Below, piece by piece: positions 1 through 43,536 of a DNA stretch of 64,000 bases. The stretch lies in assembly GCF_057098645.1 (NCBI RefSeq), contig NZ_CM169472.1; one strand, given 5' to 3'. Below the pieces are notes generated by a model. It had not been told where the DNA came from. It saw only the letters and a list, made by a program, of their open reading frames with translations, and did no database searches. The first letter of the stretch is position 1; each line of letters begins with the position of its first letter. The position numbers and the translations under genes were made by a program.

Positions 1-283
1 TTTATACTGTTTCCCGCAGTTTGCCGACGAAGAAAGTTTGCGGCAGTGGCTGGCGCAACGGCAGATTGCTGCCGATAACCTGACGCAGCTGACCGCGTTT
101 CGGCATACCTTCAGCCATTTCCACTTAGATATTGTGCCTATGTGGCTTCCCGTGTCGTCATTCACCGGCTGCATGGATGAAGGCAATGCGCTCTGGTATA
201 ACTTAGCGCAACCGCCGTCAGTTGGCCTGGCGGCTCCCGTGGAGCGTTTGTTACAGCAGTTACGCACTGGCGCGCCGGTTTAG
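1..283 (+). CDS. mutY: Adenine DNA glycosylase MutY, C-terminal portion (5' end lies upstream of the window)
   Basis: Translation ending ...FRHTFSHFHLDIVPMWLPV...LLQQLRTGAPV matches my recollection of the MutY C-terminus; the frame is open to position 1; synteny with yggX-mltC-nupG. Confidence 0.85.
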   Translation, partial: LYCFPQFADEESLRQWLAQRQIAADNLTQLTAFRHTFSHFHLDIVPMWLPVSSFTGCMDEGNALWYNLAQPPSVGLAAPVERLLQQLRTGAPV

Positions 284-307
284 CGCGTGAGTCGATAAAG
301 AGGATGA

Positions 308-586
<279 letters not shown>

Positions 587-623
587 AAACAGTGCCGGAG
601 CACGCCTCCGGCAGCTTGCTTAA

Positions 624-1730
<1,107 letters not shown>

Positions 1731-1931
1731 TTCCATTAACCGCCCCTGACGATGCTCAGGGGCAAAAATGTTATCCACATCACAATTTCGTTTTGCAAAT
1801 TGGGAATGTTTGCAATTATTTGCCACAGGTAACAAAAAACCAGTCCGCGAAGTTGATAGAATCCCATCATCTCGCACGGTCAAATGTGCTTTTTCAAACA
1901 CTCATCCGCATCACGATGTGAGGAAATTAAC

Positions 1932-3188: not shown

Positions 3189-3203
3189 TTACGCAAAGAA
3201 AAA

Positions 3204-3233
3204 CGGGTCGCCAGAAGGCGACCCGTTTTTTTT
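3204..3233. terminator. Bidirectional rho-independent terminator between convergent nupG and speC
   Basis: GC-rich inverted repeat cgggtcgcc-agaa-ggcgacccg followed by a T-run on the + strand and an A-run 5' of it. Confidence 0.55.
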
Positions 3234-3237
3234 ATTC

Positions 3238-5373
3238 TTACTTCAACACATAACCGTACAACCGTTTCATGCCATCCGCATCGGTTTCGCTATAAACACC
3301 TTGCAGCTCCGGCGAAAATCCCGGCAACAAATTCACCCCTTCTTCCAGTGCAAGGAAATAACGTTGAACCGCCCCACCCCAGACTTCCCCGGGTACCACG
3401 CAAAGCACGCCAGGTGGATAAGGCAACGCCCCTTCTGCCGCAATTCGCCCTTCGGCATCACGAATCCGCACCAACTCCACGTCACCGCGAATATAAGCGC
3501 TATGCGCATCCTGGGGGTTCATCACCACTGACGGGAAACTCTGCTGGCGGAACATCGCTTTTTGTAGGTCTTTGACGTCGAAACTGACATACAGATCGTG
3601 CATCTCCTGACACAACTGGCGCAGGGTGTAGTCGCGATAGCGCACCGGATATTTGTTATAAACGCTCGGCAACACCTCAGCCAGCGGCGAGTCATCCTCA
3701 ATATGCTGTTCAAATTGCGCCAGCATCGCCACCAGTTGTGCCAGCTTCTCTTGGCTTTCCGCCGGAGTTAATAAGAACAGAATGGAGTTGAGATCGCACT
3801 TCTCCGGCACAATGCCGTTCTCACGCAGATAGTGCGCCAGAATCGTCGCCGGAACGCCAAAGTCGCTATACTCGCCGGTTTCGGCATCGATACCTGGTGT
3901 AGTGAGTAACAGCTTGCACGGATCAACAAAATACTGATCCGCGGCATATCCTTCAAAGCCGTGCCACTTCGCCCCCGGCTCAAAACTGAAAAAACGGCGG
4001 TCGCTGGCTAACACTGATGTCGGATAATCCTGCCACAATTTGCCATCAACAACGGGCGGGATAAACGGGCGGAACAGCTTACAGCGCGCAAGAATAGCCT
4101 TGCGCGACTCAATACCCAACTCAACGCACTCAGCCCACAGCCGACGCCCACTCTCCCCTTCATGAATTTTGGCGTTAACATCCAGTGCAGCAAACAGCGG
4201 ATAGAAAGGGCTGGTAGAAGCATGGAGCATAAAGGCGTTATTCAACCGCTTATGCGGGCAAAAACGCGCCTGTCCGCGGATATGGTTATCTTTTTTATGG
4301 ATCTGCGACGTCTGTGAGAATCCCGCCTGCTGTTTGTGCACCGACTGAGTCACAAAGATCCCTGGATCGTTTTCGTTAAGTTCTAACAGCAGCGGCGAGC
4401 TATCCGCCATCATCGGGATAAACTGTTCGTAACCGACCCACGCGGAATCAAACAGAATGTAATCACACAGATGCCCAATGGTATCGATCACCTGACGGGC
4501 GTTATAGACAGTGCCGTCATAGGTTCCCAGCTGAATAATCGCCAGGCGAAACGGGCGCGGCAGGTCGGCTTTTTCTGGCGCAACGTCGCGAATTTGCTGG
4601 CGCAGATACTCTTCATTAAAACAGTGCGCATCAATACCGCCAATGAAACCAAACGGGTTGCGTGAAGCTTCCAGATAGACCGGCGTCGCCCCCGCCTGAA
4701 TCAGCGCGCCGTGATGATTCGACTTATGGTTGTTACGGTCGAAGAGCACCAGATCGCCACGCGTTAATAGCGCATTCGTCACCACTTTATTCGCTGCCGA
4801 TGTGCCGTTCAGTACAAAATAGGTTTTATCGGCATGAAAGACTTTGGCTGCGAATTTCTGCGCATCTTTCGCCGATCCTTCATGAATAAGCAGATCGCCC
4901 AATTTTACGTCAGCATTACACATATCGGCGCGAAAGACGTTCTCACCAAAGAAATCGTAAAAATGGCGTCCGGCAGGATGCTTTTTAAAAAACGCACCAT
5001 GTTGATGCCCAGGGCAAGCAAAGGTGCTGTTGCCCATCTCAACGTACTGCGTCAGCGTGTCATAAAACGGTGGCAGCAAATTCTCTTCATACTGACAGGC
5101 TGCGGATTCCAGCTCCAGCCAATGCTGCTCGTTGCCGTTGATTACCGCCGTAACGCCCGCAGGTAATTCAACAGCATGTTCGGAATACAAAAACACCGGT
5201 AGATGAAAACCGGTGCGCTTAAGCAACGTAAGAATGCCACTGCGACTATCCGCAGCGGTAATGACGACTGCCGCGACGTCCGTAAAATCAGTATCTCCCA
5301 ACGCCACCACGCGGCGATGAGTAGAAAGTCGGGATACCAGTTCACTACTGGCGGCAATATTCATTGATTTCAT
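3238..5373 (-). CDS. speC: Ornithine decarboxylase (biosynthetic), SpeC
   Basis: Long ORF; internal start MKSMNIAASSELVSRLSTHRRVVALGDTDFTD... gives 711 aa; fold-type I PLP decarboxylase features; conserved position next to nupG. Confidence 0.9.
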   Translation of the reverse strand: MKSMNIAASSELVSRLSTHRRVVALGDTDFTDVAAVVITAADSRSGILTLLKRTGFHLPVFLYSEHAVELPAGVTAVINGNEQHWLELESAACQYEENLLPPFYDTLTQYVEMGNSTFACPGHQHGAFFKKHPAGRHFYDFFGENVFRADMCNADVKLGDLLIHEGSAKDAQKFAAKVFHADKTYFVLNGTSAANKVVTNALLTRGDLVLFDRNNHKSNHHGALIQAGATPVYLEASRNPFGFIGGIDAHCFNEEYLRQQIRDVAPEKADLPRPFRLAIIQLGTYDGTVYNARQVIDTIGHLCDYILFDSAWVGYEQFIPMMADSSPLLLELNENDPGIFVTQSVHKQQAGFSQTSQIHKKDNHIRGQARFCPHKRLNNAFMLHASTSPFYPLFAALDVNAKIHEGESGRRLWAECVELGIESRKAILARCKLFRPFIPPVVDGKLWQDYPTSVLASDRRFFSFEPGAKWHGFEGYAADQYFVDPCKLLLTTPGIDAETGEYSDFGVPATILAHYLRENGIVPEKCDLNSILFLLTPAESQEKLAQLVAMLAQFEQHIEDDSPLAEVLPSVYNKYPVRYRDYTLRQLCQEMHDLYVSFDVKDLQKAMFRQQSFPSVVMNPQDAHSAYIRGDVELVRIRDAEGRIAAEGALPYPPGVLCVVPGEVWGGAVQRYFLALEEGVNLLPGFSPELQGVYSETDADGMKRLYGYVLK

Positions 5374-5771
5374 AAGCGCAAAACCCGTTTCGGGGAAGTA
5401 AGAATACCGGACAAGGTGTAAAACCCTGCCCCATGAGATATGGGTCAAACTGGTCACCAGCTCCGACCGCCAGACATCAGTAAAAGCAGAAACGCTCTGA
5501 TTTTACTGTTGTCCTGCAGTGAACGTGCGTTAACTTCACCGCATGAGCAGTAGCATAAAAAGAGAAGGGTTTCGCGCGAAACGGCGATAAGCGAGAGAAT
5601 GTAAGGAGATGGCGTGCATCGGGCAAACTCCGTACAGAGAGGAGAAAATTCGCGCAATCATGGCACCTTTCGCTAAGACGTGCAAGCCAGGACTTTGCGA
5701 CCAGACAAGCCATCAACAAGGCAAAAAGTTCATAATAAGAAAATCAAACAATACAGTTAACAGGAACTCTT

Positions 5772-6479
5772 GTGGTCATCGGCCCTTTTATCAACGCAAG
5801 TGCAGTATTACTGGGTGGCTTGCTCGGTGCACTGCTTAGCCAACGCTTACCGGAACGTATCCGCGTCTCCATGACATCAATTTTTGGTCTGGCATCGCTG
5901 GGGATTGGTATTTTACTGGTGGTGAAATGCGCCAACCTTCCAGCGATGGTTTTAGCAACCTTACTCGGAGCATTAATCGGCGAAATTTGTCTGCTGGAGA
6001 AAGGCGTCAATACAGCGGTCGCCAAAGCACAAAATCTGTTTCGTCACTCACGTAAGAAGCCAGCGCATGAATCTTTTATTCAGAATTATGTCGCGATTAT
6101 TGTCCTGTTTTGCGCCAGCGGCACCGGGATCTTCGGGGCGATGAACGAAGGGATGACCGGCGATCCGAGTATTTTAATCGCCAAGTCATTTCTTGATTTC
6201 TTTACGGCGATGATCTTCGCCTGCTCGCTGGGTATTGCGGTATCGGTGATTAGTATCCCATTACTGATCATCCAGTTAACGCTGGCGTGGGCTGCCGCGC
6301 TGATATTACCGCTGACCACACCGTCGATGATGGCAGACTTCAGCGCCGTAGGCGGTTTATTGCTGCTGGCAACCGGATTACGCATCTGTGGCATTAAAAT
6401 GTTCCCGGTGGTCAACATGCTTCCAGCACTCCTTCTGGCAATGCCGCTTTCCGCCGCCTGGACCGCCTGGTTTGCCTGA
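5772..6479 (+). CDS. yqgA: DUF554-family inner membrane protein YqgA (GTG start)
   Basis: 235 aa hydrophobic ORF MVIGPFINASAVLLGGLLGALLSQRLPERIRVSM...; conserved neighbour of pheV. Confidence 0.85.
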   Translation: MVIGPFINASAVLLGGLLGALLSQRLPERIRVSMTSIFGLASLGIGILLVVKCANLPAMVLATLLGALIGEICLLEKGVNTAVAKAQNLFRHSRKKPAHESFIQNYVAIIVLFCASGTGIFGAMNEGMTGDPSILIAKSFLDFFTAMIFACSLGIAVSVISIPLLIIQLTLAWAAALILPLTTPSMMADFSAVGGLLLLATGLRICGIKMFPVVNMLPALLLAMPLSAAWTAWFA

Positions 6480-6584
6480 CAATGCGTGCAATAGCGGCAA
6501 AGTGATGATAGATTGTGCAGTCTGCAGTAAATTGAAGAAATTTGATTGACGAGACGAGGCGAATCAGGTTTAATGCGCCCCGTT

Positions 6585-6660
6585 GCCCGGATAGCTCAGT
6601 CGGTAGAGCAGGGGATTGAAAATCCCCGTGTCCTTGGTTCGATTCCGAGTCCGGGCACCA
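6585..6660 (+). tRNA. pheV: tRNA-Phe (GAA anticodon)
   Basis: 76 nt GCCCGGATAGCTCAGTCGGTAGAGCAGGGGATTGAAAATCCCCGTGTCCTTGGTTCGATTCCGAGTCCGGGCACCA; cloverleaf with GAA anticodon in the loop; called pheV by synteny with yqgA. Confidence 0.95.
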
Positions 6661-6672
6661 AATTCATATCAA

Positions 6673-6698
6673 CGGACCTCCACGGAGGTCCGTTTTTC
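6673..6698 (+). terminator. Rho-independent terminator downstream of pheV
   Basis: Inverted repeat cggacctcc / ggaggtccg followed by TTTTT. Confidence 0.6.
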
Positions 6699-6857
6699 GT
6701 TTCAGAACGCCACAATTTAAGCGTTCTGCCTCCAAATCAATTCTACCGAACTCAACCAGATTCCCCCCACATCAACCCCATTGTGTGGGTATAATTGCGG
6801 GTATACCCCAGTTCGACAGAATTTGTACCCTCTTTAACGCATTCAGAAGGCTGAACT

Positions 6858-8120
6858 ATGGCACTGACTGACGCAAAAATCCGGGCTGCAAAGCCCACTG
6901 ACAAGGCTTATAAACTCACTGACGGGGCCGGCATGTTCCTGCTGGTTCATCCTAATGGTTCCCGTTACTGGCGTCTCCGTTATCGTATTCTGGGTAAGGA
7001 GAAAACCCTGGCACTTGGTGTGTATCCCGAAGTTTCTCTCTCCGAAGCTCGTACAAAACGGGATGAGGCCCGAAAACTGATTTCGGAGGGGGTTGACCCT
7101 TGCGAACAGAAAAGAGCTAAAAAAGTAGTCCCTGATTTACAACTCTCTTTTGAACATATTGCACGACGCTGGCATGCCAGTAATAAACAATGGGCACAAT
7201 CACACAGCGATAAAGTACTCAAAAGCCTCGAGACACACGTTTTCCCCTTTATCGGCAACCGGGATATCACAACACTCAGTACCCCGGAGCTGCTTATCCC
7301 TGTTCGTGCTGCAGAAGCTAAACAAATTTATGAAATCGCCAGTCGTCTGCAGCAAAGAATATCTGCTGTAATGCGTTATGCCGTACAGTCTGGCATCATC
7401 AGATATAACCCGGCTCTGGATATGGCTGGTGCATTGACCACGGTAAAACGCCAGCATCGCCCTGCTCTGGATCTTTCACGCCTGCCTGAACTTCTGTCGC
7501 GTATTGACGGTTATAAAGGCCAGCCTGTCACCCGACTGGCAGTTATGCTGAATTTACTGGTTTTTATTCGTTCCAGTGAACTCAGATATGCCCGCTGGTC
7601 TGAAATTGATATTGACAATGCCATGTGGACTATTCCAGCCGAACGCGAACCTCTGCCAGGCGTAAAATTTTCATACCGGGGCTCCAAGATGCGAACACCA
7701 CATCTTGTGCCACTCAGCCAACAGGCTGTAGCCATACTGGCAGAACTTCAGACATGGGCAGGTGAAAATGGTCTGATCTTTACGGGAGCACATGACCCAC
7801 GTAAACCAATCAGTGAAAACACCGTAAATAAAGCCCTGAGGGTTATGGGGTATGACACAACCCAGGATGTCTGTGGTCATGGATTCCGGGCGATGGCATG
7901 TAGTGCATTAATAGAATCAGGTTTGTGGTCCCGCGATGCTGTAGAACGCCAGATGAGCCATCAGGAGCGTAATGGTGTACGTGCTGCGTATATCCATAAA
8001 GCCGAACATCTGGAAGAACGTCGACTTATGCTACAGTGGTGGGCAGATTTTCTGGATGCGAACAGAGAACAATGTATCAGCCCGTTTGAATATGCAAAGA
8101 TTAACAATCCATTAAAATAG
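6858..8120 (+). CDS. P4-type tyrosine integrase (phage/island integrase)
   Basis: 420 aa ORF MALTDAKIRAAKPTDKAYKLTDGAGMFLLVHPNGSRYWRLRYRILGKEKTLALGVYPEVSLSEAR... typical N-terminus of P4-like integrases; sits immediately 3' of a tRNA gene. Confidence 0.9.
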   Translation: MALTDAKIRAAKPTDKAYKLTDGAGMFLLVHPNGSRYWRLRYRILGKEKTLALGVYPEVSLSEARTKRDEARKLISEGVDPCEQKRAKKVVPDLQLSFEHIARRWHASNKQWAQSHSDKVLKSLETHVFPFIGNRDITTLSTPELLIPVRAAEAKQIYEIASRLQQRISAVMRYAVQSGIIRYNPALDMAGALTTVKRQHRPALDLSRLPELLSRIDGYKGQPVTRLAVMLNLLVFIRSSELRYARWSEIDIDNAMWTIPAEREPLPGVKFSYRGSKMRTPHLVPLSQQAVAILAELQTWAGENGLIFTGAHDPRKPISENTVNKALRVMGYDTTQDVCGHGFRAMACSALIESGLWSRDAVERQMSHQERNGVRAAYIHKAEHLEERRLMLQWWADFLDANREQCISPFEYAKINNPLK

Positions 8121-8127
8121 TAATCAT

Positions 8128-8157
8128 CCCGGGCAGCCAGCCCGGGAATTATTTTCT
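8128..8157 (+). terminator. Terminator-like hairpin after the integrase gene
   Basis: cccgggcagccagcccggg perfect inverted repeat followed by a T-rich run. Confidence 0.45.
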
Positions 8158-8305
8158 GAATATTTTTCTTTGTGAGTAACTGGAAAAAGGATAGCGAAGT
8201 AAATTACTTTAATGAATTATTCCAGGGGCTCATTAAAGTTCTTTCGTAATACTTTGTAGTCAAACACGTTATGGCTGGCATCAAAAACCAGGTAATGACT
8301 CCAAC

Positions 8306-8794
8306 TTATTGATAGTGTTTTATGTTCAGATAATGCCCGATGACCTTGTCATGCAGCTCCACCGATTTTGAGAACGACAGTGACTTCCGTCCCAGCCTTG
8401 CCAGATGTTGTCTCAGATTATGTCGCTCAATGCGCTGAGTGTAACGCTTGCTGATAACGTGCAGCTTTCCCTTCAGGCGTGATTCATACAGCGGCCAGCC
8501 ATCCGTCATCTATACCACGACCTCAAAGGCCGACAGCAGGCTCAGAATACGCTCCAGTGTGGCCAGAGTGCAGACGTGCGCCACAACCGTCCTCCGTATC
8601 CTGTCATACGCGTAAAACAGCCAGCGCTGACGTGATTTAGCACCGACGTAGCCCCACTGTTCGTCCATTTCAGCGCAGACAATCACATCACTGCCCGGTT
8701 GTATGCGCGAGGTTACCGACTGCGGCCTGAGTTTTTTAAGTGACGTAAAACCGTGTTGAGGCCAACGCCCATAATGCGTGCACTGGCGCGACAT
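8306..8794 (-). pseudogene. insB: IS1 insB interrupted by an in-frame TAG
   Basis: Two in-frame ORFs (8510-8794 and 8306-8509) separated by TAG at 8510-8512; the reference has a Trp codon at this position as I recall (...VVIWMTDGW vs ...VVV*MTDGW here). Confidence 0.75.
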
Positions 8795-8988
8795 CCGACG
8801 CCATTCATGGCCATATCAATGATTTTCTGGTGCTTACCGGGCTGAAAGGCGGTGTAAGTGAACTGTAGTTGCCATGTTTTACGGCAATGAGAGCAGAGAT
8901 AGCGCTGATGTCCGGCAGTGCTTTTGCCGTTACGCACCACGCCTTCAGTAGCGGAGCAGGAAGGACATCTGATGGAAATGGAAGCCAC
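8713..8988 (-). CDS. insA: IS1 InsA
   Basis: 91 aa [47 protein letters not shown]... zinc-finger InsA. Confidence 0.9.
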
Positions 8989-9214
8989 GCAAGCACCTTA
9001 AAATCACCATCATACACTAAATCAGTAAGTTGGCAGCATTACCGAAATCCCCATCCTTTAGGGCAGTGAGGATGTCAATAATAGCAGACCACATCATGAG
9101 TCATTTTGACCGACACATGCCAGAAGCAGAGGCTCCATCCCATTTTATACCTACCCTATAACACTTAGAAAAACAACATGTTAAAAATGTCTATTGGAAA
9201 CAATTTTATTTCCA

Positions 9215-9240
9215 ATTGTAATGATAACCATTCTCATATT
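9215..9240 (+). promoter_or_regulatory. Fur box in the fecIR promoter region
   Basis: tgtaatgataaccattctcatattaat resembles the Fur consensus gataatgataatcattatc and lies about 45 bp upstream of the fecI start. Confidence 0.5.
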
Positions 9241-9279
9241 AATATGGCTACGTGATAATTAACTTTTGATGCACTCCGC

Positions 9280-9797
9280 ATGTCTGACCGCGCCACTACC
9301 ACTGCTTCCTTAACGTTCGAGTCGCTTTATGGCACACATCACGGCTGGTTGAAAAGCTGGCTGACGCGCAAACTCCAGTCTGCTTTTGATGCAGATGACA
9401 TTGCCCAGGACACTTTTTTGCGGGTAATGGTCAGCGAAACGCTCTCGACGATCCGCGATCCTCGCTCCTTCCTGTGCACTATCGCCAAACGCGTGATGGT
9501 GGACCTGTTTCGCCGAAACGCGCTGGAAAAAGCGTATCTGGAGATGCTGGCGCTTATGCCGGAGGGGGGAGCGCCTTCACCTGAGGAACGCGAAAGCCAA
9601 CTCGAGACCCTACAACTCCTCGACAGCATGCTGGACGGGCTAAACGGCAAAACACGTGAAGCGTTTCTGCTTTCGCAACTGGATGGTCTGACATACAGCG
9701 AGATTGCGCACAAACTCGGTGTTTCCATCAGCTCCGTGAAAAAATACGTGGCGAAAGCCGTCGAGCACTGCCTGCTGTTCCGTCTGGAGTATGGGTT

Positions 9798-9801
<4 letters not shown>
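9280..9801 (+). CDS. fecI: ECF sigma factor FecI
   Basis: 173 aa, sigma-70 region 2 and region 4 features; first gene of the fec locus. Confidence 0.92.
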
Positions 9802-13162
<3,361 letters not shown>

Positions 13163-13206
13163 TGTGTTAACGCCCGGCTTGCCGGGCTTTTAGCTGGAAT
13201 GTGATT

Positions 13207-14109
13207 ATGTTGGCATTTATCCGTTTTCTTTTTGCAGGCCTGCTGCTGGTGATCAGCCACGCCTTTGCCGCCACGGTTCAGGACGAACACGGCACGTTTA
13301 CACTCGAAAAAACGCCACAACGGATTGTGGTGCTGGAACTCTCGTTCGCCGATGCGCTGGCCGCCGTGGACGTCAGCCCGATCGGTATTGCCGACGATAA
13401 CGATGCAAAACGCATCCTGCCCGAAGTGCGTGCGCACCTGAAACCGTGGCAGTCCGTCGGAACGCGCGCGCAGCCGAGCCTGGAAGCCATTGCCGCTCTG
13501 AAACCAGACCTGATCATTGCCGACAGCAGTCGCCATGCGGGGGTTTACATCGCCTTGCAGCAAATCGCGCCGGTACTGCTGCTTAAGTCCCGCAACGAAA
13601 CCTACGCTGAAAATTTGCAATCTGCGGCTATCATCGGCGAAATGGTGGGTAAAAAGCGAGAGATGCAGGCACGTCTGGAACAACATAAAGAGAGGATGGC
13701 GCAGTGGGCCAGCCAGCTTCCCAAAGGGACACGCGTGGCCTTTGGCACATCACGCGAACAGCAATTCAACCTGCATACTCAGGAGACCTGGACCGGCAGC
13801 GTGCTGGCCTCTCTGGGGCTGAACGTTCCCGCTGCGATGGCGGGTGCGTCCATGCCGTCCATCGGCCTGGAGCAACTGCTGGCGGTCAATCCTGCCTGGC
13901 TGCTGGTTGCCCACTATCGCGAAGAGAGCATTGTTAAACGCTGGCAACAAGATCCGCTCTGGCAGATGTTAACCGCCGCGCAGAAGCAGCAGGTTGCTTC
14001 GGTCGACAGTAACACCTGGGCGCGGATGCGCGGTATTTTTGCTGCAGAGCGTATTGCCGCTGACACGGTAAAAATCTTCCACCATCAGCCGCTTACCGTT
14101 GTGAAATGA
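13207..14109 (+). CDS. fecB: Periplasmic ferric citrate binding protein FecB
   Basis: 300 aa from the ATG at 13207 (MLAFIRFLFAGLLLV...), signal peptide. Confidence 0.9.
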   Translation: MLAFIRFLFAGLLLVISHAFAATVQDEHGTFTLEKTPQRIVVLELSFADALAAVDVSPIGIADDNDAKRILPEVRAHLKPWQSVGTRAQPSLEAIAALKPDLIIADSSRHAGVYIALQQIAPVLLLKSRNETYAENLQSAAIIGEMVGKKREMQARLEQHKERMAQWASQLPKGTRVAFGTSREQQFNLHTQETWTGSVLASLGLNVPAAMAGASMPSIGLEQLLAVNPAWLLVAHYREESIVKRWQQDPLWQMLTAAQKQQVASVDSNTWARMRGIFAAERIAADTVKIFHHQPLTVVK

Positions 14110-27625: not shown

Positions 27626-29012
27626 TGGTTGCCTCTGGCGCAGTTTGCGGTGATGCCGTTCCCGGGAATGGATTGCCAGTGCGGGGACTGTGGAGCTTAA
27701 TTCCGGTGTTGGTGGCCTTTCCGTTGATTTTGAGCCAACAGCCCTCCTGTGACTGACAGGCTGCCTCGTCATTCCATACGTATCTTCAGGTGAACAGATG
27801 CATGTCTGAGCGTACTCACGCAGCCGGCCCGGCAACCGCGGTGGTACTACGCTGGCTGCGAGAAAATACAGAAAGCACCAGAATACGCTCTCCTGTTGCT
27901 GATCAATCAGGATCTCATGCACCTACCGGGATCTAGGGCTAGAACTGATGAAACCGATTCGCACCTGGCTGAGTTAATGCTACAGGCCAGGGCATCACTA
28001 CCCCCTGACGAGCACTGTACTGTGGTATGCAGTTACAGGGGGCGTGTGCAGCCACACCTGAAAGCAGTGAGTCGTTCACGGCATTCAAAAACACGTGCCT
28101 TTCGTTCGCCGTTCCTGTGATGGCCGGCATCATTTGCTAAGCCGTTACCGACGTTATTCCCTCCGGGACACGCCTCTGGTTGAGGCTTTGCCCGGAGCAA
28201 TCGAATGAAAATAAGTTAAGTCACCGAAAGGGAGGATGTAGTCAACCGGGGGAACAGTAATAAGCCGTCGTGCTTTTATCGTACAAGTGTGTTGCGTTTT
28301 GCACCGAAAATACGATAGAGGTCGTTTATGGATTCCGCAGGGAGTGCTGATTATTATTCACTGGCAGCAGACAGCGATGTGTGTGCAGGCATTCAGGGGG
28401 ATGTTGTCAGCAGAAGGGTGCGTATAGCAGATTGTTGTTATACATGGCGTATGAAGTATTACCAGTCATGCGGAGTAGTGTGGTGAGGGGCTGTATGAGA
28501 AATCGCCACCTTCTTGTCAGAGAGGGAACGCTACCATGAAAGTCAAAAGCGATAACGCAGACCGGTACGATCGGTAGGTAAAACTGTAGCGGTGTGCTGC
28601 CGCCGAGGTCAGAATAATCTGCGCGTTTTTACGCCAGCGCCACCGACGAACAGCAGGAGATTGAGGGGAATTTGGCGGCGATAAAGACGTAGAAGAGAAA
28701 AACGGGCAATTTGCCGCATGCCCACAGAATCAGTGAGATCGTTAGCGACAGCAAAATGATCGGCAGCCAGCGGCGGCCTGCAATATCGGGATGAAGGAGA
28801 TCCTACGATATCGATGCTGCACCTGATATGTACGATCAGTAAATAGAGTACGAAACAGCAAACACGACGATAATAACGCTGGCAGCGGTGCCTGTCAGGC
28901 AAACGCCCACACGCAATAAAATAAATCAACCATCGCAGGGCCGTGATCATCCGCATACACCGCTGATGACGCGTCTAAAAACGCGTCAATATGACTTCCC
29001 CGGAACATTACC

Positions 29013-30254
29013 TCATTTCAGGGTATGGAGAATTTTTAACATCGAGTTATCTATGGTCTGTTTGACTTTTTCGTAATAGATCGGTTCAGATAATGACGAA
29101 TCCCAGGTATGAATATCGTTCTTATTAAAAGGAATGCATTTCATGGCTACTGCCTTTAACTGTTTCCCTTTTTGCTCATACTCATTGATATCATTAATGG
29201 TAAATTTCAAACTCTCTTTTCTTGCTTCTGTTATTTCAGTTGGGCATACCAGCTTTATATCTCCTAAGGTAAATGTACTGACCCCGGTGATGAAAAATCT
29301 CTCGGGGATTTCTGTATAGTGCCGAGTATTCCAGATTAAGCCATTAAACATACTATGAGAATGAGTTTTATTTTCGATATAATACTGATGCGTTCTCCAG
29401 TCACTAATGCCTGAGAGACTCATTACCATATTAATGATCATATTTGGGATAGGGCGATACCACATACTGAATACAGTAATTACAACTGGTATGCATATTA
29501 AAACAACTATGAATCCAGTGAATTTATCACCATTTCTGCGCTCATTAAGATGTATGGCACCAGGCAGAATGCCAATAGTAACAATAGCTGCTGTTAAGGC
29601 AAGGAGCATTAGCATTTCAACCAAATCACTTGTCTCCTCACTAAAATCAAGTTGGGTAAGCAGAAATAACATAGGTAATATTTGAACGATCCCGGGAGTC
29701 ATAAATTGCAAGGGTAAAAAACATAACAATCCTGGTTTTCTTGGTAATTTCTCATAGTTATCAGATTTATGCCAACTAAATCTCTTTGTTTTAAATAGAT
29801 TAAAATAGGATACAAAATAACTAAAAGCAAGCATCAATACAAAACCGGTGATACTTATGGAATAACCATTCCATCCATAAAGATAGTAAATATAGTAGCC
29901 AACAATTATACTACAGCATATAAACAAGCTATTTAGATAACAAACAGTGGAAATTCGATGTGGTATGCTTGGATAATTTTTGAAATTATCTTCATGTAAT
30001 GTGTAAATGAGGATTAGAATAAAAGAGGAAATGAAAATTACTAAGCTAAACCCAGAAAACGATACTATTATAAAAACAAAAATGATACCTATGGCTGAAC
30101 TGAGGCTTACAGTATCAAAGAAAATATCTAATCTATCTATGTTTGACAGATAGAACCATATAACAGCCATTGTGCATCCAGTAATAAATGTAGATGAGGT
30201 TATTACTGAAATAATGAATTTTTTATTCAACAGCTTTATGACAGATTTATTCAT
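29013..30254 (-). CDS. AT-rich orphan gene: multi-pass membrane protein (about 8 TM) with a roughly 150 aa C-terminal soluble domain
   Basis: 413 aa ORF with strongly A/T-biased codons, unlike the surrounding DNA; hydrophobic helices through about aa 260; no recognisable catalytic motif. Confidence 0.65.
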   Translation of the reverse strand: MNKSVIKLLNKKFIISVITSSTFITGCTMAVIWFYLSNIDRLDIFFDTVSLSSAIGIIFVFIIVSFSGFSLVIFISSFILILIYTLHEDNFKNYPSIPHRISTVCYLNSLFICCSIIVGYYIYYLYGWNGYSISITGFVLMLAFSYFVSYFNLFKTKRFSWHKSDNYEKLPRKPGLLCFLPLQFMTPGIVQILPMLFLLTQLDFSEETSDLVEMLMLLALTAAIVTIGILPGAIHLNERRNGDKFTGFIVVLICIPVVITVFSMWYRPIPNMIINMVMSLSGISDWRTHQYYIENKTHSHSMFNGLIWNTRHYTEIPERFFITGVSTFTLGDIKLVCPTEITEARKESLKFTINDINEYEQKGKQLKAVAMKCIPFNKNDIHTWDSSLSEPIYYEKVKQTIDNSMLKILHTLK

Positions 30255-30884
30255 AATCCGAATTCCATACCTGATAAAATTCGTATTGTAGTGAGGACCG
30301 ATTTTTTGAGCAACTTATAACCATCGCTTAAAGCTACTTGCTACCATACATGCCGTTATCCCGAACCATAAAGCGCTTGGCAGTAACACCAACATCACAG
30401 ACAGATACTGCGGTTGCGCCAAATAAAAGAATGGCGGATAAGGTCGGCGGATTGCAACGTGATGCTGTGCTGTAGGATGACTTCTGCGGTCTCGTCCAGC
30501 GCCAGCCACTCCTGGCGGATTTTGTGTGGGGGCATGGTGTGTTCCTTTTTGTGTTGTTGGTTGCGTATAGTGCTTGTTGATGATGAAAACCGGTGTGAGA
30601 TATTTTTGCCAAAACAACTAACACTGATCAGTGTAGGTAACGAGCTTTTCAGACATAATATGGTGATGATTTACACTGGAAAAACAGGACGTAACACTGA
30701 ATAGCTCTGGAGACGATTTGCTTGAAGTGGCGTGCTATTTGTTGAAAGAAGAATTTCTGATGATACCTTATTTTAAAGGAGGCTAAAGGGAGAGGAGAGA
30801 GCCCTGTTGAAATCAACAGGACTTAATAGCTCCTCTCCGAAGGGCAAGGAGATCACCCGTGCGCCTGGTTAGGTGAAGAAGTAC

Positions 30885-39830: not shown

Positions 39831-40441
39831 AGCTGGCGAATATCATCGGTCATCACGCGGGTATTGATGACAATACAGCGGCAAAAGCCATTGCCCATGC
39901 CATTCTCGGTGGTGTGACAGCAGCCCTTCAGGGCAACAGTGCGGCAGCAGGCGCAATTGGTGCGGGTACTGGTGAAGTGATCTCGTCAGCCATTGCGAAA
40001 AGCCTCTACCCGGACGTAGATCCGTCGAAACTGACAGAAGATCAGAAGCAAACCGTAAGCACGCTGGCAACGCTGTCAGCGGGTATGGCTGGCGGCATTG
40101 CCAGTGGCGATGTGGCTGGCACAGCTGCAGGGGCTGGTGTTGGGAAGAACATTGCTGAGAATAACTTGGTTGGTGGCACAGAGTCCGAGCAGAGCAAAGC
40201 TGCTCAGACGCATGGCGCAGATGTACTTTCCTGTAACGATGCTCCAGGCGGTGAAGCCTGTAAGCGAGGAGAAGCAGTCAATAAAGCGTATGCCGGAGCG
40301 TTGGCCACTGGTAGTGTAGCTCTCTTACCTGGCGGTGCTCAGGCCATGTGGGCTCTTGGCACAGGTGCAAATGCAGGAATTGGTTACATGGTAGATAGTT
40401 CAGTTGATCCTGAAAATGCAATCATTGCAGGATGGGTCTGA
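39831..40441 (+). other. Polymorphic-toxin-like fragment in frame with the truncated tnpC: Gly/Ala-rich pretoxin region with ENN motif (KNIAENN) plus about 90 aa glycine-zipper-like C-terminal piece; stop supplied by the IS629 terminal TGA
   Basis: ...SLYPDVDPSKLTEDQKQTVSTLATLSAGMAGGIASGDVAGTAAGAGVGKNIAENNLVGG... resembles CdiA pretoxin (PT-VENN) regions; the ORF ends exactly at the IS629 boundary (40439-40441). Confidence 0.45.
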
Positions 40442-40480
40442 ACCGCCCCGGGTTTCCTGGAGAGTGTTTTATCTGTGAAC

Positions 40481-41371
40481 TCAGGCTGCCAGATCATCGT
40501 TTCCGATGGAAGCATAATAAGCTTTTTCTGCTTCTGCCGGAGGAGTATGGCCCAGCCTTTCCAGCAATCGTCGATTGTTATACCAGTCCACCCACGTGAG
40601 TGTGGCCAGTTCCACTTCTGCACGGTTTTTCCAGCTCTTACGGTGTATTACCTCCGCTTTGTAAAGACCATTGATGCTCTCCGCCATCGCGTTGTCATAC
40701 GAGTCGCCTGTACTTCCTGTTGATGCCAGTAATCCGGCTTCCTTAAGCCGCTGTGTGTAGGCCAGCGATACATACTGAGAACCTTTATCACTGTGATGGA
40801 CCGTGCCGGACGGTCGACGGGCCCATAACGCCTGCTCCAGTGCATCCAGCACGAATGTCGTCTCCATGGACGATGAGACCCGCCACCCCACAATGTATCC
40901 GGCAAACACATCAATGATGAACGCCACATAGACGAAGCCCTGCCATGTGCTGACGTAAGTAAAATCAGCCACCCACAGCTGGTCAGGTCGTTCTGCCACG
41001 AACTGACGGTTTACGCGGTCGCCTGCGGCAACGGCTTTCCGGCTGATGGTCGTACGGACCTTTTTACCCCGGAGAACACCGGCAAGTCCCATAACCGCCA
41101 TGAGACGTGCCACAGTGCATCTGGCCACTCTGATACCTTCCCGTAACAACTGACGCCAGACTTTACGCACACCGTATACCTTGTGATTTTCATCGTATAC
41201 GCGCTGTATCTCTTTCTTCAGCCAGTCATCGCGCTGCGCACGGGCACTGCGTTTATCCGGATGATGTCGCTGTTGCTGACAGTGGTAATACGTTGACGGG
41301 GCAATATGCAGTTCGCTGCATAGCGGTCCGACCCCGTACTGCTCACGCAGCTTATCCAGCAGTGGCATCAT
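40481..41371 (-). CDS. IS629 OrfB
   Basis: Identical 296 aa translation to 18174-19064. Confidence 0.9.
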
Positions 41372-41694
41372 TTTTTCCAGAGGCGGTCGAACTCCGCCTT
41401 CGCAAAATAAGCGGAAGCCTGGCGAAGGATATCGTTACTGCGGCGCAGTTCACGATTTTCACGCTCCAGCTCTTTCAGACGCTGACGTTCAGCGGTGGTG
41501 AGCCCTCCATCACCGCCCCCGGTATCCCGCTCATGCTGGCGAACCCAGACACGCAGAGTCTCCGGCGTACAGCCAATCTTTGGAGCAATGGAACAAATTG
41601 TCGCCCATTGTGAGTCATATTCGCCCTGACTTTCCAGAACCATACGGACTGCCCGTTGACGGACTTCAGGGGAAAAACGAGTATTTTTAGTCAT
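41368..41694 (-). CDS. IS629 OrfA
   Basis: Identical 108 aa translation to 17851-18177. Confidence 0.9.
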
Positions 41695-41745
41695 CCTGTT
41701 TACCTCTTTCTCAGGAAGTTTAGTCTCCAGGATTCCCGGGGCGGT

Positions 41746-42156
41746 TCAATCAGTGTTTACTTCCCTGGCCTCGCTACCATTGGTATAGCTACTACAGTCT
41801 TCATCACTGCCACGCTCATTCTCACAGACATGTTTCTCGACCTTTCCAAGATATCTGACGCCTTTTCGCGGAATGGTTTTAATTAGAGAACTCGACAAAC
41901 CAGCGATGTCTAATGCCTTTCTAAGCATGTAAATCTGCCCATAATAACTGCTGTCGCTTACCGAACCTTTCTGCTCCCGCCAAACCTCATTGATAATATG
42001 TTGCTTATCGGATTCTCCCTGTAGTAAAAGGAGTAAAAATCGATAGCCGTTTTCAGACAGATTAATTACATTGCCTGTACTGGTGGTGATACGTCGAGAC
42101 GCTGGGTAAAACTTAACTCCCTGCCCTAAAGAAAAATAAAAACGGTCATCGCTCAT
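41746..42156 (-). pseudogene. ToxR/CadC-like winged-helix (OmpR/PhoB-type) transcriptional regulator, N-terminal 136 aa; 3' end truncated by IS629
   Basis: ...NGYRFLLLLLQGESDKQHIINEVWREQKGSVSDSSYYGQIYMLRKALD...IKTIPRKGVRYLG... winged-helix pattern; the stop codon is the IS629 terminal TGA. Confidence 0.55.
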
Positions 42157-43500
42157 AAGTACCGAACCCTGTTTTCTTCTTCACATGACTACTCATTACA
42201 ACTTTGTATGAAGTAAGATGCAAAATCATATTGTTTACATTAAGTTAAGCAATTATACCGTTTAAACAAAGACAATACGTCTCTTTATTTCTCATAAAAC
42301 CCCAATCCCTTACAGGGCTTATTGAAAATTTAAAAATCACAAATTTCTCAATACTAAAAATGAGATCACATAAGAAATCAAAAAACCTTCTCATCTATTT
42401 TAAGTTTTCCCAACGTAAAATAAGAGCTTTTATTAATAACTGAACCACTTTACTGTTCTATTTGTTCAGGTATTGTATTACGGTGTGCTGAGATCCATAG
42501 GTGCATCCCTGTATCCCGCGATGAGACTAAAATAGTCGTGATTTAAGCTCGTATCAGATTCTTAGTGAATACCACATTTGTTATAATTAAGTGAAAAGAT
42601 ACATTGCTGATTTACATTTTTTGGTTTACAAAATGTCATCACTTACAGAGTTATCGCTGACATATACCTTTAATCTCTTAATCCTTTCGTGTTATTGCAA
42701 TACAACCATCCATAAAGCAGGCTATTTTTAGCAGGAAATACTCAGGTGTCAACATTCGAACCCCAACCCTGAAATATTCATATAAATTAATGATTTTTTC
42801 ATTTATTCACACCTAATCAAAGTATTCAAATTCAGATGATTTTTCTGCTCAACAGACACAAACAGGCAATAATACTCTCCAAAGCGAACAATATTTGGCA
42901 TTACGATTTAATGCTTCATAATCACCAAATCATTTAACTATAAATTTTCTTATTTTTAACGAAATGGTTGGTGTTTTTTTGGAATTAAAAACATACATAA
43001 TATTAACATCTACCGACATTTCACTTTCCGAAAGACGAATGATTTCGAATCCTCATCTACGTTCTCCCATCCCAAATATCTTTATTAATAGGCAGTACGA
43101 ACACTGTTATAGCAAGATTACCTTATTAACCTAATGGAATCCTTTATGTAACAAGTGAAAATAAATTCCTTAAAATTGATTCTCAGCAAATCTTAAAAGT
43201 TCTCATTATTCTGCAAAATCAGCTTTGCGAATAATCTTATGTTTTTGGGAATTTTGATCTGCTCATTGCTCTCGTGAAAAATACAAACAAGAGAAAAAAC
43301 GCCATTCGTCATGAAAAGAACAGACGTAGCAATGTAATAACATACTAAAATTGATCTCATGAAAGTGGGTGCTTTATAACCAGCACAGAAGCTCAGACGT
43401 ATAAATATTAAACAATTTGCATTGTAAAACGGAGACTATGTATTAAGAAGCCAATCGTAAAAACGGTTCCCTGGCGAGATAAACGACAAACAAATGGAAA

Positions 43501-43527
43501 GCCGGATGATATTTACCTTCATCCGGC
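43501..43527 (-). terminator. Hairpin downstream of glcA (terminator candidate)
   Basis: gccggatga...tcatccggc inverted repeat immediately 3' of the glcA stop; weak T-tract. Confidence 0.35.
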
Positions 43528-43536
43528 ATTATTGAC

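What the first reader, a model, noticed from the sequence alone, without database searches (positions are those of the whole stretch)
28950..30880. AT-rich single-gene insertion encoding a 413 aa polytopic membrane protein with a C-terminal soluble domain
The gene at 29013-30254 has markedly lower GC and different codon usage from everything around it, implying separate horizontal origin. It encodes about 8 TM helices plus a roughly 150 aa soluble domain and is flanked by non-coding DNA containing possible remnants of a disrupted gene (short ORF MPPHKIRQEWLALDETAEV... at about 30400-30540, minus strand). Solitary membrane proteins in island hotspots are frequent abortive-infection or immunity effectors.
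Basis: partly seen in the sequence, partly recalled or inferred. Interest (0 to 1): 0.6.

Follow-up and report, generated by a model that had tools for sequence, protein, structure and literature searches.

The report
Orphan mobile-element inner-membrane protein gene
A real, AT-rich, self-contained gene left behind by a decayed conjugative element encodes an inner-membrane protein of an uncharacterised family that usually sits among anti-phage defence genes, so it is a good but untested candidate for a new envelope-level defence or exclusion factor.

Summary
A 413-aa ORF lies at 29013-30254 on the minus strand, with GC 0.33 against 0.52-0.59 for its neighbours. The window is the E. coli pheV-tRNA island. 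The protein is predicted to have 7 TM helices (not 8), N-terminus in, and a ~135-145 aa periplasmic C-terminal domain with an invariant Cys pair.

The upstream "remnants" are two ICE gene relics: the last 40 codons of a DUF4400/DtrJ-like gene and the first 37 codons of another ICE gene. Homologues at 81-86% identity sit intact in the traD-DUF4400 | RAQPRD slot of Salmonella-type ICEs. That slot is the published defence hotspot "GI-Hotspot 8". Other members lie beside type I R-M/McrBC, a retron, TIR clusters and PtuAB. A 26%-identical paralogue sits next to RepFIB on about 1,190 IncF plasmids.

Purifying selection is clear (dN/dS 0.23-0.33; C-domain ~0.1). Function is inferred, not shown. My best guess, at about 0.4, is a single-protein block to phage or MGE entry acting at the envelope.

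The parts
29013..30254 (-). CDS of 413 aa plus stop. It is a stand-alone inner-membrane protein of an unnamed family (RefSeq WP_001336100.1, called there at 385 aa).
   Evidence: The ORF is listed. There are 53 homologue clusters, nearly all 413 aa and aligning from Met1. dN/dS against the Salmonella and E. coli copies is 0.23-0.33. No Pfam, NCBIfam, PADLOC or PHROG match.
29454..30254 (-). Codons 1-267: membrane domain with 7 predicted TM helices (about 13-39, 52-86, 97-126, 130-154, 174-199, 210-239, 244-265), N-terminus cytoplasmic.
   Evidence: Hydropathy and AF2 helices. Net loop charge over 135 family members alternates +1.6, -1.0, 0.0, -0.2, +2.7, -1.4, +1.2. Family-wide conserved residues are W33, Y35, L36, S77 and P231. 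dN/dS is 0.35-0.59.
29013..29453 (-). Codons 268-413: an interface helix followed by an alpha/beta globular domain, predicted periplasmic, with an invariant Cys337/Cys373 pair (likely disulfide).
30285..30313 (-). Promoter-like TTGCTC-N17-TACAAT, 30 nt upstream of the ATG. It lies inside the 73-bp leader conserved in all three close copies.
   Evidence: Read from the sequence and the three-way comparison of upstream regions. It falls below the threshold of the consensus scan, so this is inference only.
28968..28987 (-). Hairpin GACGCGT-TTTTAG-ACGCGTC, 26 nt after the stop codon, with no T-run. It is conserved in the E. coli L024 copy.
   Evidence: Read from the sequence. It lies within the +71 bp shared with L024/L025. 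Function is not tested.
28942..30327 (-). The smallest cassette shared at 94% identity with an unrelated E. coli locus (next to the aryl-polyene cluster). It spans -73 to +71 around the CDS.
   Evidence: blastn borders and the alignment of flanks.
30318..30437 (-). Relic: the last 40 codons of a DUF4400/DtrJ-like ICE gene, ending KRWL-stop. It marks descent from the traD-DUF4400 | RAQPRD slot of an ICE.
   Evidence: tblastn gives 75% identity to the C-terminus of the Salmonella ICE protein. DNA homology to that ICE runs from 30428 to 29012.
30395..30535 (-). Relic ORF (RefSeq WP_001134749.1, 46 aa). Its first 37 codons match the 296-aa ICE protein WP_032214551.1. Homology stops at about 30426-30431.
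   Evidence: The DNA match 30431-30746 is 90% identical to the E. coli QA-1986 630 ICE.

Best explanation
The gene is a self-contained cargo cassette (leader, gene and hairpin) that originated in the variable traD-DUF4400 | RAQPRD slot of an ICEclc/PAGI-2/SPI-7-type integrative conjugative element. It survived when that element decayed inside the E. coli pheV island.

Its product is predicted to insert into the inner membrane with seven helices. It is predicted to display a compact, disulfide-stabilised alpha/beta domain of no known fold in the periplasm.

I propose that it acts alone, at the envelope, as an anti-MGE exclusion or defence factor. The strongly conserved periplasmic domain would engage an incoming DNA-delivery apparatus (phage tail-tip or ejection proteins, or a conjugative channel), or an envelope component that the apparatus needs. 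The genome would then fail to cross the inner membrane.

Shown or computed here: the ORF, its composition, purifying selection, cassette borders, ICE ancestry, predicted topology, lack of any known family or fold, and the neighbourhoods. Inferred: the disulfide, the defence role, and the entry-block mechanism.
For: 1. The gene is real and selected. dN/dS is 0.23-0.33 overall and 0.07-0.11 in the periplasmic domain. The family has 108 representative clusters with conserved length and motifs.

2. It is a stand-alone mobile cassette. No neighbour is conserved across 15 or more contexts. Adjacent genes in two loci are not paralogues. Homology to other loci stops at -73/-174 and at +71/the stop codon. 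In 15 of the 17 loci measured (including three copies of the IncF paralogue) the gene has GC 0.29-0.39, against flanks of 0.44-0.63.

3. Defence context.
- Homologues at 86% and 81% identity are the occupant of the traD-DUF4400 | RAQPRD slot in ICEs. They are alone in one variant and with a ParE toxin-antitoxin pair in another. The window copy still carries the DUF4400 3' end.
- That interval is the published 'GI-Hotspot 8', filled with CBASS, R-M, Mza, IetAS, Gabija and others. No AMR, virulence or antibacterial modules were found there, and the hotspot was also seen in Salmonella, Serratia and Klebsiella (PMC12629846).
- The same slot in an E. coli ICE holds a DRT-associated DUF1848 gene.
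- Other members lie divergently beside hsdMSR plus mcrBC in three Serratia species.
- Others lie beside a type I-A retron and SIR2/HerA fragments, a TIR/ThsB cluster, PDC-M15B and PtuA/PtuB-like genes at a prophage end.
- One lies 3 kb from a type I R-M at an ICE end. One lies 5-8 kb from SymE/HNH/Mrr.

4. The architecture points to the envelope. The pattern is N-in, 7 TM, C-domain out. Cytoplasmic loops are at most about 20 aa. The outside domain has exactly two Cys.

5. It is not a known transporter or enzyme.
Against: - There is no experiment. The case rests on guilt by association, and MGE cargo hot spots also collect non-defence genes.
- In this window no intact known defence gene lies within 10 kb. 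The neighbours are IS elements, the mhb operon and Zn-ribbon genes.
- There is no PADLOC hit for the protein or for 10 diverse relatives.
- The query found no match in 50,697 phage genomes. Only two proviral-edge loci turned up in IMG/VR. That is unlike classical prophage superinfection-exclusion genes.
- The part facing the outside is the most conserved, not the most variable. That is unusual for a protein in an arms race with diverse invaders.
- Several contexts (E. coli P0046, Samsonia, L040, the IncFIB replicon region) show no defence neighbours.
- Topology and the disulfide are predictions. Model coordinates could not be inspected.
Confidence: 0.4

Rival explanations
1. It is an abortive-infection-type effector. 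The protein senses envelope damage or a periplasmic phage product through its C-domain. It then opens or disorders the inner membrane through its 7-TM bundle, killing or arresting the infected cell.
For: The defence-island and hotspot contexts are the same as for the main explanation. The TM bundle is large, has few conserved polar residues and evolves under relaxed constraint (dN/dS 0.35-0.59). It is a single gene with its own leader.
Against: No cytoplasmic domain is available to sense replication or late gene products. There is no similarity to known membrane Abi or effector proteins in PADLOC. Nothing in the loci examined indicates toxicity control: no antitoxin-like partner is conserved.
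Confidence: 0.15
2. It is a conjugation-related exclusion or mating function that serves the element. An inner-membrane protein in the recipient would block redundant entry of related ICEs or plasmids (entry exclusion), or would otherwise modulate mating.
For: The gene is found inside or at the end of ICE transfer modules, on the same strand as T4SS genes. A paralogue lies on about 1,190 IncF plasmids, mostly conjugative. The query found no match in phage genomes. Known Eex proteins such as F TraS are inner-membrane proteins encoded in transfer regions.
Against: It is not a core ICE gene. The same slot holds other cargo in a related ICE, and the position differs between ICEs. Many members lie in chromosomal sites with no conjugation genes. 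F-type plasmids already have TraS and TraT, and the IncF paralogue lies at the RepFIB replicon, not in tra. There is no homology to TraS (hhalign probability 0.15%).
Confidence: 0.15
3. It is an orphan immunity protein against an envelope-targeting toxin (T6SS, CDI/Rhs effector or bacteriocin). The periplasmic domain would neutralise the toxin.
For: The periplasmic location of the conserved domain suits neutralisation of periplasm-acting effectors. The distribution is island-borne and patchy. A VgrG-DcrB-Rhs/PAAR-AHH locus lies within 8 kb in Xenorhabdus.
Against: No toxin gene is consistently adjacent in any of the 15 or more contexts. At about 400 aa with 7 TM helices, it is far larger than the immunity proteins I know of (from my own knowledge, not tested here). 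In Xenorhabdus the Rhs locus is separated from it by the ICE T4SS genes.
Confidence: 0.1
4. It is an envelope-modifying enzyme, for example a GtrC-like/GT-C glycosyltransferase or another lipid-linked-substrate enzyme. It would alter LPS, ECA or peptidoglycan and so change phage receptors.
For: It is an AT-rich, MGE-borne polytopic protein with periplasmic parts, like serotype-converting GtrC proteins. The first periplasmic loop has a conserved acidic motif, DRLD, in the close subfamily. D285 at the membrane-periplasm interface is 86% conserved.
Confidence: 0.07
5. It is a functionless relic carried along with the decayed ICE fragment and the mhb operon.
For: It is flanked by two truncated ICE genes and IS-rich DNA. 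One orthologue, in Mixta, is frameshifted. One E. coli copy has an IS5 inserted within the matched 2.5-kb region.
Against: The reading frame is intact in 89 of the 91 E. coli genomes that carry it, at 99% identity or more in 87. dN/dS is well below 1, and about 0.1 in the C-domain. The family is conserved down to about 16-20% identity with invariant motifs.
Confidence: 0.05

Closest known systems
IncFIB-replicon-adjacent hypothetical protein of IncF plasmids (WP_001072358.1 / WP_001403369.1 / WP_097498104.1, 389 aa)
   Same: Same family. It shares 26% identity over 396 aligned columns (about residues 11-391 of the query; E 2e-36). It has the same 7-TM plus C-domain layout and the GISD, W, L-CP and C motifs. 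It is AT-rich (GC 0.33) and is a solitary gene.
   Different: It is plasmid-borne, fixed beside repB (RepFIB) and a tyrosine recombinase on about 1,190 plasmids. It is equally uncharacterised, being annotated 'hypothetical' everywhere, and no paper cites the accessions.
Cargo of 'GI-Hotspot 8' (traD ... RAQPRD interval) of PAGI-2/PAGI-3/LESGI-3-type ICEs (PMC12629846)
   Same: Homologues at 81-86% identity occupy exactly this interval in enterobacterial ICEs. The window copy retains the DUF4400 3' end that borders it. The hotspot is reported to hold defence systems almost exclusively.
   Different: The known occupants are cytoplasmic nucleic-acid or nucleotide-based systems (CBASS III, R-M, Mza, IetAS, Gabija). 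This one is a single polytopic membrane protein with no PADLOC model.
Phage superinfection-exclusion membrane proteins (P22 SieA and SieB; from my own knowledge also T4 Imm and HK97 gp15)
   Same: They are single small cassettes on mobile elements. They are inner-membrane proteins that act without partners to stop incoming DNA. They are typically AT-rich 'morons' with their own promoter.
   Different: There is no homology (hhalign probability 0.7% to SieA and 0.2% to SieB). This protein is two to five times larger, with 7 TM helices and a folded periplasmic domain. The query found no match in 50,697 phage genomes. It is carried by ICEs, plasmids and islands instead.
Conjugative entry-exclusion proteins (F TraS; from my own knowledge SXT/R391 Eex)
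   Same: They are inner-membrane proteins encoded within transfer regions of conjugative elements.
   Different: There is no homology to TraS. This gene is not a core gene of its ICE family, its position varies, and it is often found away from any T4SS.
GtrC-type serotype-converting polytopic proteins (P22 GtrC)
   Same: They are AT-rich, MGE-encoded polytopic inner-membrane proteins with periplasmic portions and extreme sequence diversity.
   Different: There are no gtrAB partners, no profile similarity and no GT-C fold match.

Membership tests
Unnamed 7-TM plus periplasmic Cys-pair family (this protein, its Enterobacterales relatives and the IncF paralogue) | Full-length homology with conserved length (about 375-424 aa) and the motifs W33/Y35/L36, S77, P231, G282-x-x-D285, F303, W308, L335-x-C337-P338, C373 | tested here: met
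   phmmer found 108 representatives, 64 of them at E<=1e-10. Alignments of 38 and 135 members were examined. The pairwise E-value to the IncF paralogue is 2e-36. Foldseek gives full-length TM-scores of 0.6-0.94 to AFDB members.
Known anti-phage defence systems (PADLOC-DB v2.0.0) | Match to a PADLOC protein model | tested here: not met
   There were 0 families at E<=1 for the query and 0 at E<=0.01 for 10 diverse relatives.
Known anti-phage defence systems | Measured protection against phage | not testable with these tools
   This needs plaque or EOP assays with the cloned cassette.
Cargo of ICE GI-Hotspot 8 (traD ... RAQPRD) | Located between the traD/DUF4400 genes and the RAQPRD-family gene of an ICEclc/PAGI-2-type ICE | tested here: met
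   This is met for homologues L023 (86% identity) and L038/L039 (81% identity). In the window only the DUF4400 3' end survives, and the RAQPRD side is lost. The hotspot definition comes from PMC12629846.
Phage superinfection-exclusion proteins (P22 SieA/SieB type) | Sequence or profile homology to SieA or SieB | tested here: not met
   hhalign probability is 0.7% for SieA and 0.2% for SieB. There is no PHROG match.
Phage superinfection-exclusion proteins | Encoded by a (pro)phage genome | tested here: not met
   tblastn found no match in 50,697 phage records. Two IMG/VR loci were found, both at the outer edge of predicted proviruses.
Conjugative entry-exclusion proteins (TraS/Eex type) | Homology to a known Eex protein, and a fixed core position in the transfer operon | tested here: not met
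   hhalign against F TraS gives probability 0.15%. The slot is variable and holds other cargo in a related ICE. Many members are far from any T4SS.
GT-C / GtrC-like glycosyltransferases | GT-C fold or GtrC homology, and gtrA/gtrB partner genes | tested here: not met
Characterised transporter or enzyme families (Pfam-A, NCBIfam) | Significant profile match | tested here: not met
   The best Pfam i-Evalue is 0.23 (YtzH) and the best NCBIfam E-value is 0.093, at 12 bits against a 125-bit cut-off. Precomputed Pfam is '-' for all 53 homologue clusters. The C-domain profile has no Pfam match and no PDB sequence match.
Bacterial lipoproteins | Conserved lipobox Cys after an N-terminal signal peptide | tested here: not met
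   ITG|C27 resembles a lipobox in the E. coli and Salmonella members. Cys27 is Leu or Phe in Serratia and other members, and it is not among the conserved columns.

The most novel reading that the evidence does not exclude
This family would be a new class of single-protein, envelope-embedded immunity against incoming mobile DNA. It combines 7 TM helices with a periplasmic disulfide-bonded domain of no known fold. It is absent from Pfam, PADLOC and PHROGs. It would act by a periplasmic recognition or blocking mechanism unlike the cytoplasmic nucleic-acid-based systems that fill the same ICE hotspot. It is already spread on about 1,190 IncF plasmids and on ICEs of enteric pathogens.
Probability: 0.3. 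Interest if true: 0.75.

Novelty: new variant of a known kind. Interest (0 to 1): 0.55.

Why it matters
If the family does block phage or MGE entry, it would add an envelope-level, single-gene mechanism to the list of defence systems. It would also assign a function to a conserved but unannotated backbone gene found on roughly 1.6% of all sequenced plasmids, mostly clinical IncF plasmids of E. coli. That bears on phage therapy and on plasmid ecology.

It is also a clean worked example of how ICE defence-hotspot cargo outlives its element inside tRNA islands. Even if the defence idea fails, the family is a well-delimited orphan. It has a confident structural model and no known fold relative for its periplasmic domain.

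Tried and rejected
- **Family libraries.** Pfam, NCBIfam, PADLOC and PHROGs were searched with the protein. PADLOC and PHROGs were also searched with 10 distant relatives. Nothing matched.
- **Other architectures for the C-domain.** A profile search returned only fragments of the same family.
- **A conserved partner gene.** None was found. The upstream genes in the Pantoea and Photorhabdus loci are unrelated to the target.
- **Lipoprotein signal peptide.** The Cys is not conserved.
- **Named membrane proteins.** hhalign against GtrC, SieA, SieB and TraS gave probabilities below 1%.
- **RNA families.** Rfam found none in 26-32 kb.
- **Promoter and terminator scan.** It gave no more sites than the shuffles.
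- **Literature.** No paper mentions WP_001336100, WP_001072358, WP_001403369 or WP_097498104.
- **Species-representative genome scan.** It returned only 6 loci, too few for a statistical defence score.
- **Not possible here.** Model coordinates are not exposed, so the Cys-Cys distance could not be measured.
Full report
**1. The observation**

The window holds a 413-aa ORF at 29013..30254 on the minus strand. Its GC is 0.329 and GC3 0.324. The adjacent genes (3-hydroxybenzoate 6-monooxygenase, maiA, the FAH-family hydrolase, gtdA, the Gp2-family gene and the Zn-ribbon genes) have GC 0.52-0.59 and GC3 0.56-0.65. Sliding 1242-bp windows over the 64 kb have mean GC 0.516 (sd 0.050). The trough is confined to about 29000-30330.

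RefSeq annotates the gene as 'hypothetical protein' WP_001336100.1 but starts it 28 codons late, at 385 aa. The longer start is supported by 38 homologues of the same length that align from Met1.

**2. Where the window comes from**

The window is the pheV-tRNA genomic island of E. coli. tRNA-Phe lies at 6585-6660. The island is 99.9% identical to O145:H28 strains such as RM12761.

The gene order is: pheV, P4-type integrase, the fec operon, YfjI/AlpA/Gp2-family/Zn-ribbon genes, the target, the mhb (gentisate) operon, LysR, IS elements, glcA. PMC11537424 describes this island type as having the fec cluster as its only core.

The gene is present in 91 of 5,426 complete E. coli genomes. It is always chromosomal, and 87 copies are at least 99% identical. 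The same target-plus-mhb block also sits in a cadC-proximal island in other strains.

**3. The protein**

Hydropathy and the AlphaFold2 model (38-sequence alignment, mean pLDDT 80.8, pTM 0.71) give seven long hydrophobic helices. An interface helix and an alpha/beta domain follow.

I measured net loop charge over 135 full-length family members. It alternates +1.6 (N-terminus), -1.0, 0.0, -0.2, +2.7, -1.4, +1.2. By the positive-inside rule this puts the N-terminus in the cytoplasm and the C-terminal domain (residues about 268-413) in the periplasm.

That domain has exactly two cysteines in 129 of 135 members. Cys337 and Cys373 are essentially invariant down to about 16% identity. I read this as a structural disulfide.

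Other family-wide conserved residues are W33, Y35, L36, S77, P231, G282, D285, F303, W308, L335 and P338. There is no obvious catalytic constellation.

A lipobox-like ITG|C27 is present in the E. coli and Salmonella members, but the Cys is not conserved.

**4. No known family or fold**

- Pfam: best i-Evalue 0.23.
- NCBIfam: 12 bits against a 125-bit cut-off.
- PADLOC and PHROGs: nothing for the query and nothing for ten diverse relatives.
- A profile of the C-domain matches no PDB sequence and no Pfam family.
- Foldseek against AFDB50 finds 98 matches at E<=1e-3. All 50 matches listed are effectively uncharacterised: 44 are named 'Uncharacterized protein', two carry DUF names, one is 'Membrane protein, putative', and two Pseudomonas syringae entries carry enzyme or efflux-pump names that rest on 14% identity. 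Full-length matches extend from Enterobacterales to Pseudomonas, Stutzerimonas and Chromohalobacter at 12-17% identity.
- Direct profile tests against P22 SieA, P22 SieB, P22 GtrC and F TraS give hhalign probabilities below 1%.

**5. The family**

The word-indexed search found 53 clusters, all in Enterobacterales and all 'hypothetical'. Exhaustive phmmer over 1.84 billion representatives found 108, of which 64 are at E<=1e-10. These are full-length proteins of 375-424 aa down to about 20% identity. The named ones are from Pantoea, Xenorhabdus, Serratia, Erwinia/Winslowiella and Cronobacter.

Only 6 loci were recovered from one-genome-per-species representatives of 100,044 species. One of them is a mis-binned E. 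coli contig labelled Collinsella.

The gene is AT-rich in 15 of the 17 loci measured: GC 0.29-0.39 against flanks of 0.44-0.63. The exceptions are Pantoea (0.49) and E. hormaechei (0.44).

Selection is purifying. dN/dS among the window, Salmonella and E. coli-L024 copies is 0.23-0.33. It is 0.07-0.11 in the periplasmic domain and 0.35-0.59 in the membrane part.

**6. A widespread plasmid branch**

tblastn against PLSDB found 1,270 plasmids with a paralogue of about 24-26% identity covering 92% of the query. Pairwise BLASTP gives E 2e-36, with the same motifs.

The paralogue is a 389-aa 'hypothetical protein' (WP_001072358.1, WP_001403369.1, WP_097498104.1). It lies beside the RepFIB initiator and a tyrosine recombinase in about 1,190 IncF plasmids, mostly from E. 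coli and mostly conjugative. Plasmid F itself lacks it. No paper in the library cites these accessions.

**7. What the flanks are**

In E. coli QA-1986 630 that protein sits among ICE genes: HTH, ParB, DUF2857, STY4528-family, PFL_4669-family, DUF3158 and topoisomerase III.

Immediately downstream of it, 30318-30437 (minus) encodes the last 40 codons plus stop of a DUF4400/DtrJ-like ICE protein, at 75% identity.

DNA homology to a Salmonella enterica ICE runs from 30428 to the stop codon of the target, at 89% identity. Homology to an unrelated E. coli locus beside the aryl-polyene cluster runs only from -73 to +71 around the CDS, at 94% identity.

All three copies share a 73-bp leader with a promoter-like TTGCTC-N17-TACAAT (30313-30285). 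This is my reading; the site is below the scanner's threshold. A hairpin at 28968-28987 follows the stop codon in two of the copies.

So the unit that moves is leader plus gene, with or without the hairpin. The window copy descends from an ICE that has since lost everything else.

**8. The ICE slot is a known defence hotspot**

In the Salmonella ICE the 86%-identical homologue is the sole occupant of the interval between traD-DUF4400 and the RAQPRD-family gene. It lies on the same strand as the T4SS genes. An 81%-identical homologue occupies the same interval, together with a ParE toxin-antitoxin pair, in two other assemblies.

In the related E. coli QA-1986 630 ICE the interval instead holds a DUF1848 gene, which matches PADLOC's DRT-associated DUF1848 model, plus a second gene.

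PMC12629846 defines exactly this traD...RAQPRD interval as 'GI-Hotspot 8' of the PAGI-2/PAGI-3/LESGI-3 islands. CBASS type III dominates it, alongside R-M, Mza, IetAS, Gabija, Lamassu and others. The authors found no anti-defence, AMR, virulence or antibacterial modules there, but many uncharacterised proteins. They also saw the hotspot in Salmonella, Serratia and Klebsiella.

**9. Other neighbourhoods**

With known or candidate defence genes nearby:
- Serratia fonticola, S. liquefaciens and S. silvae: divergently adjacent to hsdM-hsdS-hsdR, with McrBC alongside in the S. fonticola and S. liquefaciens loci.
- Photorhabdus: between SIR2/HerA fragments and a complete type I-A retron (RT, PtuA-like ATPase, HNH), next to integrases and, notably, another fec operon.
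- Pantoea: next to a ThsB/TIR cluster.
- Xenorhabdus: directly after traG_N at the end of an ICE transfer module, 3 kb from a type I R-M.
- Siccibacter: between a PADLOC candidate gene (PDC-M15B) and the tail end of a prophage.
- An IMG/VR provirus edge: near PtuA/PtuB-like genes.
- Enterobacter: 5-8 kb from SymE, HNH and Mrr genes.
- The Salmonella ICE also carries DRT2.

Without obvious defence genes:
- This window.
- The E. coli P0046 paralogue.
- The E. coli aryl-polyene-cluster locus (L024/L025), which is IS-rich.
- Samsonia.
- L040.
- A Cronobacter plasmid, which carries only RES and VapBC toxin-antitoxin genes.
- The IncF replicon region.
These are covered.

No neighbour is conserved across contexts. 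Adjacent same-strand genes in two loci are unrelated to the target. The query found no match in 50,697 phage genomes.

**10. Interpretation**

The computed facts are these. The gene is genuine, selected and horizontally mobile, and it stands alone. It encodes a polytopic inner-membrane protein with a conserved periplasmic domain. It has no relationship to any characterised family or solved fold. It is carried preferentially in cargo slots of ICEs, plasmids, islands and prophage edges that are otherwise filled with anti-phage and anti-MGE systems.

From this I infer a defence or exclusion function. The protein has essentially nothing in the cytoplasm, and its most constrained part faces the periplasm. 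I therefore favour action at the envelope: interference with genome delivery by phages or conjugative machines.

Confidence is about 0.4. The evidence is associative. This window itself has no intact defence neighbours. And a highly conserved outward-facing domain is not what one expects of an arms-race receptor.

The rivals are:
- an Abi-like membrane effector (0.15);
- a conjugation-related exclusion function serving the element (0.15);
- orphan immunity to an envelope toxin (0.10);
- an envelope-modifying enzyme (0.07);
- a functionless relic (0.05, contradicted by dN/dS and by conservation).

**11. Verdict**

Horizontal origin, disrupted flanking genes and the absence of any transporter or enzyme match all hold. 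'Abi or immunity effector' remains a hypothesis, now with specific contextual support.

The family is uncharacterised and unnamed. As a kind of thing (a solitary MGE-borne membrane 'moron' in a defence hotspot) it is familiar. As a protein family and fold it is new. The interest lies in a cheap, decisive experiment and in the breadth of the IncF paralogue.

Noticed in passing
window 17795-19106 and 40439-41750: Two 100% identical, inverted 1,312-bp IS3-family copies bracket a 21.3-kb segment. The segment carries YfjI/AlpA, IS21, the Gp2-family and Zn-ribbon genes, the target, the mhb operon, LysR and IS66. It could be a composite transposon or a substrate for inversion.
   Followed up: partly
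window 29013-30254 (RefSeq WP_001336100.1): RefSeq starts the gene 28 codons late (385 aa), which removes most of TM1. Homologues of 413 aa align from Met1.
   Followed up: yes
PLSDB plasmids, e.g. L034:2679-3848 (NZ_CP086482.1): A 26%-identical, 389-aa paralogue is a conserved, unannotated gene next to the RepFIB initiator and a tyrosine recombinase on about 1,190 IncF plasmids. It is absent from plasmid F itself.
   Followed up: partly
window 41746-43536: This is a second low-GC patch. It holds a truncated winged-HTH regulator ORF (41746-42156, minus) and about 1.3 kb of AT-rich non-coding DNA before glcA. In strain RM12761 the regulator precedes a tad/Flp pilus cluster that is missing here.
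   Followed up: partly
L026 (JAIJJM010000061.1, 'MAG: Collinsella sp.'): A 9-kb contig assigned to an actinobacterial MAG is 99.6% identical to this E. coli island over 3 kb. It is almost certainly mis-binned.
   Followed up: no
L042 (E. coli MLI104K2, NZ_CP116925.1): The same block (mhb operon, relic ORF, target) sits in a different island next to cadCBA. There it is joined at window position 28425 to CbtA/DUF5983/DUF957/DUF4942 relics, so the block has moved between Phe-tRNA-type islands.
   Followed up: partly
L014 (Photorhabdus australis) 176-6220 and 6523-13810: The Photorhabdus homologue lies in an island that, like the E. coli pheV island, carries a fecABCDE operon. Fragmented SIR2/HerA genes and a complete type I-A retron follow it.
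   Followed up: partly
L037 (E. coli QA-1986 630 ICE) 9927-11656: The traD-DUF4400 | RAQPRD slot of this ICE holds a DUF1848 gene that matches PADLOC's DRT-associated DUF1848 model, plus a 265-aa gene, with no RT nearby. This may be an unrecognised defence pair.
   Followed up: no
window 28609-28956 (-): A 115-aa ORF is annotated as a hypothetical protein in some genomes (WP_001326345.1). It lies in the 1.4-kb gene-poor stretch to the left of the target. Its sequence looks non-genic and it was not examined further.
   Followed up: no
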